Below, piece by piece: positions 11,401-14,400 of a stretch of DNA of 64,000 nt. The notes under the pieces were generated by a model. The model was not told where the DNA came from, did no database searches, and saw only the letters and a list, made by a program, of their open reading frames with translations. Made by a program: the position numbers and the translations under genes. This DNA is from Antedon mediterranea. Lineage: Eukaryota > Animalia > Echinodermata. How positions within the stretch are numbered: position 1 is the first letter of the stretch; every line of letters begins with the position of its first letter. Location of the stretch: assembly GCF_964355755.1 (NCBI RefSeq), contig NC_092675.1, forward strand, positions 124,001-188,000, given 5' to 3'.

Positions 11401-14400
11401 CTTGCTATAAATAGACGCCTTTCTGACATCTCATCAGACAAAGATACATTTCATGCATCCGCACCCCTATACCAGGAAGCCCTCAAAGAAAGTGGATACA
11501 ATCATCAACTTGAGTTCAATGCTGAACAGCAGAAGCCCAAAAAATCACGCACCAGAAACATAATTTGGTTTAACCCACCATTCAGCAAAAACGTAGCAAC
11601 CAACATCGGCCACAAGTTTTTAGCTATAGTAGAAGATTGTTTTCCTGCCGGCAACAAGCTCAGGAAAATATTTAACAAAAATACCTTGAAACTAAGCTAT
11701 AGTTGCATGCCCAGCGTAGACAAAGTAATTAACGCACACAACAAATATGTGATAGCCAAAGAAAAGCCTACTGAAACCAACGCGAAAACAAGCGGATGTA
11801 ACTGCCGCAATCCCAATGAATGCCCGCTCCCAGGTAACTGCCTAACAAAAGGTGTAGTTTACCAAGCTACAGTAAAGAGAGAAGATTCATCAAAAGAAGA
11901 AACATATGGCGGACTAACTGAAAACCAGTTTAAAACTAGATACAGAAACCATACGTCTTCATTCCGGAACGAAAAATTAAGAAGTGCAACGGAACTCAGT
12001 AAATATATATGGACACTTAAAGACTCTAAAACAAATTACTCAATTAAATGGAAAATTATAAAGAAATGCAAACCTTACTCAAATATTAACAAAAGATGTA
12101 ATTTATGTATATATGAAAAGTATGTTATTATACGTCAACCAGAGCTATGCTCACTGAACCGTAAGAACGAGTTAGTCTCTACTTGTAGACATAGGAAAAA
12201 ATTCTTACTAAATTGCAGATCCAAACAGTTTATCTAAAACAATAGGCTATTGTATACGACTTCCCGATGACTCACTTCTATTAAGCACTATGAGACAACT
12301 GTGTCACTTATGTTTTATATTTCACCTGAAGAGTGCGGCCAGCTACATGCTGGTCGTACGAAACAAATTTGTAGTGATTAAAACAATGAAGTAACCAAGT
12401 TTTCTGCTGTTATTTTATTTATTTATGCTCTACCTTGGTATTGAGCACTCTATCCAAACGGTCTGAAAATTTCAACCTGAATATATATATATATATATAT
12501 ATATATATATAAAATAACAGCAGAAAACTTGGTTACTTCATTGTTTTAATATATATATATATATATTAATTAAAAATAATAATTAAGAATAAAAATACTG
12601 AAAGATGAGGGCGTATTAATTTGATCTCTGTTGCGCGTGCGTACAACTGAGGACTAGTGCTGTTCCGCCGTGCCACGCCGAGAATGTTAAAGAGTCGTTA
12701 TCCAATCGAGTTCGAACAATACCATGAAAGCCCCAATGGTCTAATGGTTAGGACATCTGCATATCAAGCAGGCGGTCCGAGTTCGAGTCTCGGTTGGGGC
12801 GACTTTTTCTCATTCTCACAGATTTCCTCATCTTTATCGTTTCAAATTAATTAATTAAATTTCAGTATATCACCGGGCGGTTTAGAATTAATGTTCTTTG
12901 CCTCTTGTGTTTATATATAAAATAACAGCAGAAAACTTGGTTACTTCATTGTTTTAATATATATATATATATTAATTAATTTGAAACGATAAAGATGAGG
13001 ATCTGTGAGAATGAGAAAAAGTCTTATTGAACTTATTGAAACATATGTCGGACTAACCGAAAACACATTTAAATGCAGATATAACGCACACAATAGTTCA
13101 TTCCGTAATGTTAAATACAAAAACAGCACAACGCTTAGCCAGTACATCTGGAAGCTAAAAGATGATAACATAAAGTATAACATTAAATGGCGAATAATAA
13201 AGAAGTGTAAACCATATTCCAATGTTAACAAACGGTGTAATCTATGCTTACAAGAGAAGTATTATATTATATGCAAGCCTGAAACCAGCTCACTTAACCA
13301 TAGGAACAAATTAGTCAGTGCATGTAGACATAGGAGAAAGTTTCTACTAAAGTATCAGTAATTTAGATAATAAGAATTTGGTTAACAATAGACTGTCCAG
13401 GAAATAGAGATGTGTTGTACTTGCTAATTAGCATACTATTGTTCACATAAACAGTTTGCCTTAAGACTTCATTATAGCTTTTTGTATTCACTTGTGACTA
13501 TCATTCAGAGCCAAGCACCTGAAGATTGAGTTCATACTCATGAAACAGCCTGTAGTGCAATAAAATGTTCAGTTGGTAATTTACTAGCGTCTTTCATTTA
13601 TTTATATTTGGCTCTACATTTTGTATCGAGCACTTTCGCTTTCATGGTCTGCGTTAAATTCACCACGATTTATATATATATATATATATATATATATATA
13701 TATATATATATATATATATATATATATATATATATATATATATATATATATATATATATATATATATATATATTTATATTTATATATTTATATATATAAA
13801 AAAACACATTAGGCAATGAACATTTGCTGAATGATTTTTTTCATTTCATTTCATTTCATTTATTTCAATATCATTATCGCAGCCTTAGCTGAATTACAAA
13901 GATATTTACATTTGTTCAATATTAAAATTTGTAAAAAAGTATAAAACCAATGATAAAAAAATATAAAAAAGGAGGAAATTTACACAAGAAATACAATACA
14001 GGAACATTCAAAAAGTTTAGCTTAAAATATTAAAATAGAAAAAAAAAAAAAAAAAAAAGTTGTCAGTTGTTGAAATTAATTGCCGACTTTCCGAAGAAGA
14101 GAAAAAACTTCTTTCCCGAGGACTTAAATTCTGCCCAAAACCAAGGCAGGTCGGCGGACAACAACTATCTTTGGATATGGAGTCTTTCTCCAGAAGATTA
14201 CGATTACGTGAACATTTTGCTGATTCAGACAGCAGCACCACGCAAAACGAAGGCAACGCTAACAAATTTAAACCAAAAAGTTCCTGGAATCCACCTAAAA
14301 ATCGTTGTCCAGCTTTAGAAACATTCATTCAGGCTATTGAGGAGGATGTACAAAACTACGTCCCGAGTCCAGATAAACGTGACAATCTCTCAAAACAAGA

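What the first reader, a model, noticed from the sequence alone, without database searches (positions are those of the whole stretch)
12601..13023. tRNA in place of the hammerhead: candidate Penelope-mobilised element processed by host tRNA machinery
Seen: a ~310 bp non-coding repeat (12601-12912 and 18912-19227) with a full cloverleaf ~130 nt inside the element, not at the 5' head as in normal SINEs. The cloverleaf lies ~110 nt from a 3' end abutting TA repeats, matching the HHR position in PLE families A-D here (~80-130 nt from their ends). Like the PLEs, it leaves 5'-truncated tail pieces (8805-8870, 21023-21115) and an inverted piece lacking the last ~60 nt tail (12971-13023). That inverted piece stops at the discriminator base (ttggggc|Gacttttt), i.e. 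at or 1 nt from the RNase Z site, and is fused to a PLE-D fragment. Established: PLE pLTRs carry HHRs, and tRNA-like structures can direct RNase P/Z cleavage. Inference: a PLE-dependent element, or the 3' end of a PLE lineage, in which tRNA processing replaces ribozyme cleavage. I do not know of a described example.
Basis: partly seen in the sequence, partly recalled or inferred. Interest (0 to 1): 0.9.

Follow-up and report, generated by a model that had tools for sequence, protein, structure and literature searches.

The report
tRNA-bearing passenger of Penelope retrotransposons
This is a cut-off copy of an abundant, gene-less animal repeat that carries a tRNA-like segment plus a built-in antisense copy of it; it sits in TA repeats in the two-armed pattern of Penelope-like jumping genes and is likely copied by their enzyme, with the tRNA likely acting as promoter and stop signal rather than as a ribozyme substitute.

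Summary
The repeat and its cloverleaf are real, but the 310-bp unit is not the whole element. Public contigs show thousands of matching pieces and a 5' extension beyond 12601. Both window copies are 5'-truncated pieces of a probable ~360-bp tandem monomer. Penelope (PLE) mobilisation is well supported: 6 of 6 pieces end at (TA)n, there are two 3' ends 56 nt apart like the PLE 'tail', and one inverted arm is fused head-to-head, without TA, to a Hydra-clade PLE arm. The new feature is a head segment (12680-12720) antisense to the tRNA 3' half and trailer. In full-length RNA it is predicted to replace the cloverleaf with a rod (14-20 kcal/mol). A T5 run follows the discriminator. Best reading: the tRNA supplies Pol III promoter and terminator, and the rod shields the downstream tRNA from processing. 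Nine literature searches found no tRNA-bearing PLE passenger. Unexplained tRNA-containing tandem repeats are known from amphibians.

The parts
12587..12911 (+). Copy 1: 5'-truncated stretch of the repeat (head + tRNA + tail)
   Evidence: (5' extension to 12587 matches X8 contig)
12587..12729 (+). Head; inferred to be the 3' part of the preceding monomer. 12595-12611 is predicted to pair with 12825-12835 and 12863-12870
   Evidence: tandem inference
12680..12720 (+). Antisense segment complementary to the tRNA T arm, 3' acceptor strand, discriminator and T5 trailer (12778-12817)
   Evidence: best 45-nt duplex -50.1 kcal/mol, 0 of 100 shuffles as good
12730..12801 (+). tRNA-like segment, anticodon AUC, A-box-like 12737-12748, B-box-like 12780-12791, discriminator G12801
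   Evidence: box consensus recalled
12804..12808 (+). T5 run two bases after the discriminator (Pol III terminator-like)
   Evidence: sequence; function inferred
12856..12911 (+). 56-nt tail between the two 3' ends (12855 short arm, 12911 long arm), with a weak conserved stem-loop whose loop varies among 4 copies
12504..12564 (+). Left copy of a 61-bp direct repeat around copy 1 (right copy 12912-12972); contains a 37-bp inverted end of PLE family B; TSD-like
12971..13023 (-). Inverted short arm of the repeat (equivalent to 12855 back to 12801), 3' end at (TA)8
13024..13670 (+). Hydra-type PLE family D arm fused head-to-head to the short arm: 14-nt junction with a local duplication, endonuclease C-terminus 13038-13361, hammerhead 13519-13554, 3' end at (TA)n
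   Evidence: (69% aa identity to family B)
18913..19227 (-). Copy 2, a second subfamily, 5'-truncated at the 12603 equivalent, between two TA tracts; tRNA at 19024-19095
   Evidence: (its alleles at 26-47% of depth in X1)
8805..8868 (+). 5'-truncated tail piece between TA tracts
21025..21114 (+). 5'-truncated tail piece between TA tracts
13802..13824 (-). Very short inverted 3'-end piece, same variant as 8805
8937..12480 (.). Context: two-arm insertion of Hydra-clade PLE family B (DKT, CxCX5C), short arm lacking 54-63 nt; model for the arm geometry
6882..8774 (.). Context: two-arm insertion of PLE family A (CX2-5CxxC linker), short arm lacking 38 nt

Best explanation
This is a non-coding, high-copy repeat, likely a ~360-bp tandem monomer, that is likely copied into (TA)n by a Hydra-clade Penelope-like enzyme, and its tRNA segment likely serves as Pol III promoter and terminator while the antisense head is predicted to shield the downstream tRNA from processing. 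Shown: tRNA-like segment with a T5 run behind it; antisense head; hundreds to thousands of copies; TA-abutting 3' ends at two sites 56 nt apart; scattered 5' truncations; one arm fused to a Hydra PLE arm. Inferred: Pol III starts at the tRNA of one unit, sometimes reads through the first T5, and stops at the T5 behind the next tRNA, giving a terminally redundant RNA (tRNA-tail-linker-head-tRNA). Multimeric read-through RNA would serve too. The head folds the second tRNA into a rod that RNase P and Z would not recognise. The PLE protein nicks (TA)n and starts reverse transcription internally at 12855 and 12911, one site per target strand, giving head-to-head arms. Strand transfer through the repeated tRNA, or copying of a multimer, carries synthesis on into the head and builds tandems. 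The PLE-passenger part alone I put at about 0.85.
For: 6 of 6 pieces end at TA. Two 3' ends 56 nt apart match the PLE tail of two RT start sites (PMC11167929) and the 48-63-nt offsets of Hydra family B, against 38 nt for family A. The inverted arm joins a Hydra D arm with no TA between. 9,314 and 6,814 contigs lay on the region in runs X1 and X2; rough bounds are 150-4,500 copies for the head and 400-12,000 for the tail in X1. 10 of 24 listed long pieces carry 125-1,951 nt of unrelated 5' flank, with ends scattered over 12676-12738. Tandem unit: the same non-TA continuation follows the 3' TA in X8 and X1, and its end agrees in 7 of 9 letters with the start of the X8 5' extension (compared by eye). 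Rod: z -6.6 for copy 1; forcing the cloverleaf costs 19.7 and 14.0 kcal/mol; head:body duplex matched or beaten by 1 of 300 shuffles in each copy; 6 of 7 listed variants in the rod keep pairing.
Against: No genome was available, so no full monomer or tandem array was seen; the ~360-bp unit rests on a 9-letter overlap and length bookkeeping. The model needs read-through of the first T5. No depth step or end pile-up appears at the tRNA 5' end in X1 or X2 (step ratios 0.94-1.05 and 0.91-1.0), which a Pol III start would predict if strand transfer often failed. The cloverleaf is also conserved (21 of 21 pairs in copy 1; 4 of 6 listed variants keep pairing), more than a promoter needs. For copy 2 the rod is weaker (z -2.0), sequence-level antisense similarity is not significant (430 of 1000 shuffles), and 40 of 60 shuffled heads also abolish its acceptor stem. 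Tail similarity to Hydra B is marginal: P 0.003 in 1 of 18 comparisons, absent for two other copies. The hybrid arm is a single case and could be a later deletion.
Confidence: 0.5

Rival explanations
1. PLE passenger whose template RNA is made by host tRNA processing. The first tRNA of a Pol III transcript has no head in front, folds as a cloverleaf and is cut by RNase Z after G12801. The head then splints this new 5' end to the 3' end of the same RNA, allowing ligation or a template jump, as hammerhead cleavage and circularisation do in retrozymes.
For: The discriminator is 110 nt from the 3' end, within the 83-126-nt range of the hammerhead cut sites. The largest of 12 depth steps (1.40 in X1, 1.44 in X2) lies at 12801/12802. 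Loose ends at 12803-12804 are among the six listed per run in X1 and X2. 3 of 8 breakpoints fall at 12799-12801 and the window's inverted arm ends at 12801. The antisense helix spans the site exactly (12695/12696 pair with 12802/12801). The acceptor stem forms without the head (0.998 in copy 1).
Against: 0 of 11 breakpoints lie at 12802; the near ones keep 1-3 nt that an RNase Z product would lack. Steps of 1.33-1.35 occur at two other bins, and summed contig depth is not copy number. The loose-end consensus at 12803 ends like a diverged subfamily's acceptor stem, so part of the pile is clipping. RT stalling at the G-C core of the rod predicts the same ends. No CCA is seen at the junction. RNase Z ends are not RtcB substrates (recalled). 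Hammerhead cleavage was dispensable in vitro (PMC11167929).
Confidence: 0.25
2. PLE passenger in which the tRNA is a passive relic. A tRNA or SINE was captured into a PLE-derived tandem unit, the antisense head is a fossil fold-back arm, and templates come from Pol II read-through of arrays.
For: Fold-back arms are the normal PLE product (PMC8557442 passages). No step at the tRNA 5' end. Naiads spread without any hammerhead.
Against: A and B boxes, the T5 run and both folds are kept across two subfamilies 11% apart. Earlier scan notes report like units in other genomes (unchecked).
Confidence: 0.15
3. An ordinary LINE-mobilised SINE, or a tRNA-derived satellite or rolling-circle element spread at DNA level, that lies among PLEs only because all gather in TA tracts.
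For: A 61-bp direct repeat flanks copy 1. L2/CR1-type LINE sequence is in the window. tRNA-containing tandem repeats and SINE-derived satellites are known (PMC10702118 passages).
Against: The tRNA is not at the head, a T5 follows it directly, no poly(A) or LINE tail is present, and the two 3' ends and the head-to-head fusion with a PLE arm are not expected. No terminal inverted repeat or Helitron end was seen by eye.
Confidence: 0.08
4. An ordinary tRNA gene duplicated with its flanks.
For: Full cloverleaf, 61 bits, promoter boxes and T5.
Against: Anticodon AUC with A32, thousands of matching contigs, many truncated copies, TA targeting.
Confidence: 0.02

Closest known systems
EN+ Penelope-like elements, Hydra clade, and non-autonomous Chlamys such as MRC1 (PMC8557442, passages; PMC11167929, main text)
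   Same: (TA)n targeting, 5' truncation, inverted short arm, tail between two 3' ends, partial tandems; the passages also describe non-autonomous tandem partners in Chlamydomonas.
   Different: No ORF, no hammerhead in the 325 nt seen, a tRNA-like segment and an antisense head instead; no significant 3' sequence identity to an autonomous family; the tail is 56 nt, not 30-40.
Animal non-LTR retrozymes (PMC7229834, passages; bioRxiv 10.64898/2026.07.22.740005, part 1 of 5 and passages)
   Same: 150-450-bp non-coding monomers in tandem and as dispersed pieces, proposed PLE passengers.
   Different: They are defined by a type I hammerhead, absent here in the part seen. The preprint does not contain the word tRNA.
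Amphibian tRNA-containing tandem repeats PolIII/TAN (~360 nt), OAX, Rana/polIII (as summarised in PMC10702118 and PMC12054243, passages; primary papers not seen)
   Same: Tandem unit of similar size with an internal tRNA-derived segment and no matching SINE; PolIII/TAN is transcribed in vitro.
   Different: No PLE link, TA targeting or antisense segment is mentioned in the passages seen; sequence homology was not tested.
TRIMp3: Cassandra, Helenus, Ajax (PMC10886601, passages)
   Same: A small-RNA gene inside a terminal repeat used as Pol III promoter; Cassandra RNA runs from one 5S copy to the next and is terminally redundant.
   Different: They are LTR elements with PBS, PPT and 5-bp TSDs; none of these was seen here.
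tRNA-derived SINEs (head-body-LINE tail; PMC10886601 and PMC10702118, passages)
   Same: tRNA-derived A and B boxes, non-coding, high copy, 5' truncation.
   Different: tRNA internal and followed at once by T5, no LINE-derived tail, two-arm insertions.

Membership tests
Non-autonomous PLE-mobilised element | Insertion at (TA)n or AT-rich targets | tested here: met
   6 of 6 window pieces; TA-rich loose ends behind 12919 in 84 and 74 contigs
Non-autonomous PLE-mobilised element | Two alternative 3' ends (tail) with an inverted short arm | tested here: met
   12855 versus 12911, 56 nt; one clear case, and 4 of 24 listed contig pieces also stop at 12856-12859 (weak)
Non-autonomous PLE-mobilised element | Variable 5' truncation | tested here: met
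   6 window pieces, 10 flanked contigs, 11 joints
Non-autonomous PLE-mobilised element | Partial or full tandem arrangement | tested here: inconclusive
   Continuation past both ends with a 7-of-9 overlap; no whole array seen
Non-autonomous PLE-mobilised element | 3' sequence shared with an autonomous partner | tested here: inconclusive
   Best P 0.003 in 1 of 18 comparisons
Non-autonomous PLE-mobilised element | Mobilisation in trans by the PLE protein | not testable with these tools
   Only the hybrid arm speaks to it
Non-LTR retrozyme | Type I hammerhead in each monomer | tested here: not met
   No core with stem II in either copy; about 30-40 nt of the monomer are not in the window and were not scanned
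Non-LTR retrozyme | Circular monomer RNA | not testable with these tools
   Only contigs were available
tRNA SINE | tRNA-derived segment at the 5' head | tested here: not met
   At least 143 nt of family sequence precede it
tRNA SINE | A and B boxes | tested here: met
   consensus recalled
tRNA SINE | LINE-derived or poly(A) tail | tested here: not met
   No tail match to the window's LINE pieces in BLAST; other LINEs of the genome not tested
TRIMp3 (Helenus, Cassandra) | LTRs with PBS, PPT and 5-bp TSD | tested here: not met
   Ends and flanks read
Functional tRNA gene | Canonical cloverleaf and anticodon loop, low copy | tested here: not met
   Cloverleaf yes; AUC with A32; high copy
RNase P/Z-processed tRNA-like element | Cloverleaf accessible in the precursor and ends at the cut site | tested here: inconclusive
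   Masked with the head, acceptor stem formed without it; breakpoints near but not on the site

The most novel reading that the evidence does not exclude
A ribozyme-free class of Penelope parasites that borrows host tRNA maturation: Pol III starts at a tRNA mimic, RNase Z cuts the unshielded first copy, and an antisense splint spanning the cut site holds the two ends together for circularisation or template jumping while hiding the second copy. It would be a two-state tRNA switch doing the job of the hammerhead, and could explain amphibian tRNA tandem repeats such as PolIII/TAN.
Probability: 0.2. Interest if true: 0.85.

Novelty: new variant of a known kind. Interest (0 to 1): 0.6.

Why it matters
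In the papers read here, SINE-like tRNA elements ride on LINEs or, as TRIMp3, on LTR elements, and the animal passengers proposed for Penelope-like elements carry hammerheads. A tRNA-bearing PLE passenger would add a third pairing. It gives a testable origin for tRNA-containing tandem repeats whose amplification is unexplained. Because the tRNA sits where the hammerhead sits, it also offers a way to ask what the hammerhead does for PLEs: an in vitro PLE assay exists, and the rod-versus-cloverleaf switch makes sharp predictions. The hybrid arm, if general, would name the partner enzyme directly from insertion sites.

Tried and rejected
No whole genome is held, so the genome-wide BLAST was not possible. 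Pattern scans found nothing useful: viral contigs 0, prokaryote genomes 0, metagenomes 4 loci that match only 20-25 nt and hold no tRNA, so chance. No RNA holder listed among the runs; X7 is only guessed to be RNA and was not used for expression. Run X8 (organism C) has depth about 8-20 with the same 5'-3' slope; I read it as trace DNA of a high-copy repeat, not as horizontal transfer. A first antisense test with lenient gap costs was not significant (232 and 1563 of 2000 shuffles) and was redone with strict scores and duplex energies. A hammerhead in the head (a CUGANGA-type motif near 12647) was rejected: no GAAA with stem II. A shared short motif with the A and C tails was not significant (P 0.05-0.98). 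The upstream extension has no match elsewhere in the window, nor have three motifs from joints and loose ends. Rfam at E up to 1 gave no family other than tRNA over the element. Helitron or MITE ends were looked for by eye only. From memory the older subfamily's anticodon stem and variable loop resemble animal tRNA-Val(UAC); not tested. Earlier-finding look-ups by sequence, genome and relatives were empty, as was one word search.
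Full report
Observation. ARAGORN calls tRNA-Asp(AUC) at 12730-12801 (+) and 19024-19095 (-), and Rfam scores them 61.2 and 47.2 bits. The two surrounding copies align at 88.6% over 316 columns. 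Four shorter pieces exist: 8805-8868, 21025-21114, the inverted 12971-13023 and the inverted 13802-13824. All 6 of 6 have a TA tract at or within 5 nt of their 3' end; about 2% of window positions lie that close to a tract edge. The segment has A-box-like and B-box-like motifs (consensus recalled) and five T two bases behind the discriminator in both copies. The anticodon loop has A at 32, so a working tRNA is unlikely (established knowledge).

Neighbourhood. The region 6.9-21.8 kb is a pile of PLE pieces in TA tracts. Family B has DKT and CxCX5C and lacks CCHH, the marks of the Hydra clade in PMC8557442 (passages; motifs read). Family D is 69% identical to B over 104 aa. Families A and C have the CX2-5CxxC linker. 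Hammerhead cores lie in A, B, C and D (my stricter scan found only B). Their cut sites are 83, 107, 126 and 116 nt from the 3' ends, and the discriminator is 110 nt from the repeat's end.

Copy number and extent. No genome is held. Twenty of 24 listed runs hold the stretch; I laid 4 of them. In X1 and X2, 9,314 and 6,814 contigs lie on the region, with summed depth rising from about 0.9 to 3.4 million in X1 against about 270 for single-copy contigs. The tool warns that this is no copy number; allowing up to 31-fold overlap inflation gives 150-4,500 for the head and 400-12,000 for the tail. Of the 24 pieces listed for X1, X2 and X7 (the longest of about 17,000), 10 carry 125-1,951 nt of unrelated 5' flank, with 5' ends from 12676 to 12738; being the longest, they are a biased set. 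The first lay masked 12450-12597, so I laid copy 2. The dominant X8 contig (depth 7.8) continues 62 nt past the 5' end of copy 2 in non-TA sequence, whose nearest 16 letters equal window 12587-12602. Both window copies are thus truncated. Behind the 3' end, X8 (loose end at 12919) and X1 (insert at joint 12913-12781) show the same non-TA continuation. The end of the X1 insert agrees in 7 of 9 letters with the far end of the 30 letters shown for the X8 extension (by eye). Adding the lengths gives a monomer of about 360-365 bp. In X8 depth is similar over head (7.8), tRNA (9.2) and 3' continuation (4 or more), as expected if young units lie in tandem. This is inference; no array was seen. I re-read for this after an earlier scan note on a 405-bp tandem tRNA unit (e1-9818842).

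PLE signature. PLE insertions often have an inverted, truncated arm and a 30-40-bp tail at one end (PMC8557442). Frangieh et al. showed in vitro that reverse transcription starts at two internal RNA sites, which define the tail, and that both target strands are cut and extended (PMC11167929, main text). In the window the short arms of A and B lack 38 and 48-63 nt. The inverted piece of the repeat lacks 56 nt. Its 3' end faces a TA tract, and its 5' end joins, through 14 nt with a local duplication and no TA, a family D arm that runs to its own TA at 13670. The simplest reading is one insertion with one arm from each RNA, which points to a Hydra-clade partner. A later deletion between two insertions cannot be excluded. 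Sequence similarity of the tails is marginal: copy 2 against B gave P 0.003, in 1 of 18 comparisons. The 3' stem-loop is weak (z -1.2 to -2.4 in 4 copies) but its changes fall mostly in the loop. Copy 1 is flanked by a 61-bp direct repeat, which I read as a long target duplication.

The antisense head. Copy 1 folds at z -6.6 and copy 2 at z -2.0. The core is a helix between 12680-12720 and 12778-12817, covering the T arm, 3' acceptor strand, discriminator and T5. Acceptor and T stem pair probabilities are 0.0 in both full copies, and enforcing the cloverleaf costs 19.7 and 14.0 kcal/mol. Controls: head:body duplex energy was reached by 1 of 300 shuffles in each copy; the best 45-nt window by 0 of 100 (copy 1) and 4 of 100 (copy 2); strict sequence alignment by 16 and 430 of 1000. 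With shuffled heads the acceptor stem of copy 1 survives (median 0.99; 1 of 60 lost), but that of copy 2 is lost in 40 of 60, so the effect is specific only for copy 1. An earlier lenient test was not significant. Of 16 common variants taken, 6 of the 7 in the rod and 4 of the 6 in the cloverleaf keep pairing. Both folds seem tolerated; the numbers are small and CpG decay confounds them.

Is the RNase Z site used? For: the step into bin 12802-12823 is the largest of 12 in X1 (1.40) and X2 (1.44); loose ends at 12803-12804 are among the six listed per run; the window's arm ends at 12801. One search gave 11 distinct joints from a truncated copy to a TA plus family C end (10 of the 15 rows shown in table 5, plus one from table 5c; five have unknown letters between). 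In copy-1 terms they lie at about 12822, 12810, 12806, 12801, 12800, 12799, 12789, 12782, 12738, 12671 and 12643. I tested the 8 within 19003-19045 and left out the 3 farther up: P 0.03 for three in the pre-set 4-nt window, 0.35 for any such cluster. Against: none lies at 12802; steps of 1.33-1.35 occur at two other bins; the loose-end consensus ends like a diverged subfamily; RT stalling on the G-C core of the rod predicts the same ends; most young copies keep tRNA and head together; and hammerhead mutants did not impair insertion in vitro (PMC11167929). The question stays open.

Mechanism. I commit to a PLE passenger (about 0.85) whose tRNA works as Pol III promoter and terminator with the rod as shield (0.5 for the whole model). 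The logic follows Cassandra, whose RNA runs from one internal 5S copy to the next (PMC10886601, passages). Its weak points are the needed T5 read-through and the lack of a depth step at the tRNA 5' end. The RNase Z variant (0.25) differs only in cutting the first, unshielded tRNA; notably the antisense helix spans that cut exactly.

What is known. Nine searches of the held library listed no tRNA-bearing PLE passenger. Seen: PMC8557442 (passages), PMC11167929 (parts 1-2 of 4), bioRxiv 10.64898/2026.07.22.740005 (part 1 of 5 and passages; no mention of tRNA), PMC7229834, PMC10886601, PMC10702118, PMC12054243 and bioRxiv 10.1101/596502 (passages); the rest as listings only. [quoted passage not shown] Amphibian tandem repeats with tRNA-like segments and no SINE counterpart are known, one of about 360 nt; their primary papers were not seen. 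Repbase, Dfam and subscription journals were not searchable, and no supplements were opened. Five earlier scan notes describe like elements in other genomes; they are unchecked AI notes and not independent support, but they suggest a recurring class.

Verdict. A real, abundant, probably tandem, tRNA-bearing passenger of PLEs with a predicted two-state RNA fold: a new variant of a known kind. Interest 0.6.

Noticed in passing
window 12504-12564 and 12912-12972: A 61-bp direct repeat, including a 37-bp inverted end of PLE family B, flanks copy 1; unusually long for a target duplication.
   Followed up: partly
window 18561-18880: A miniature two-arm insertion of family B made only of pLTR ends, each arm with a full hammerhead; the long arm has a 6-nt deletion in the tail.
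   Followed up: partly
window 19228-19343; joints: At least 11 loci in runs X1 and X2 have a family C 3' end, then TA, then a truncated copy of the tRNA repeat; one breakpoint (19036) is shared by both organisms.
   Followed up: partly
window 21139-21802 (-): A fifth PLE fragment of Hydra type (family E) ending at TA; its last 14 nt resemble the end of copy 2 (P 0.049, uncorrected).
   Followed up: partly
window 18402-18494 and 50381-50439: A 93-bp near-perfect palindrome between TA tracts with a partial copy at 50.4 kb; MITE-like, unidentified.
   Followed up: no
loose ends at 12771-12803: A third, older subfamily has a more tRNA-like variable loop and T arm; from memory it resembles animal tRNA-Val(UAC), untested.
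   Followed up: no
window 27049-30071 (+): A nearly intact CR1/L2-type LINE ORF2 (endonuclease and RT, one frame break), named by eye.
   Followed up: no
window 22200-22320 and 25454-27232: Short exon-like repeats that read by eye as EGF-like domains at about 200-400-bp spacing; the PLE pile seems to lie in an intron of this gene.
   Followed up: no
window 45260-45480, 49051-50100, 61534-62321: A palindromic ~30-bp repeat (source of spurious miRNA hits) and tandem arrays of 75 and 112 bp.
   Followed up: no
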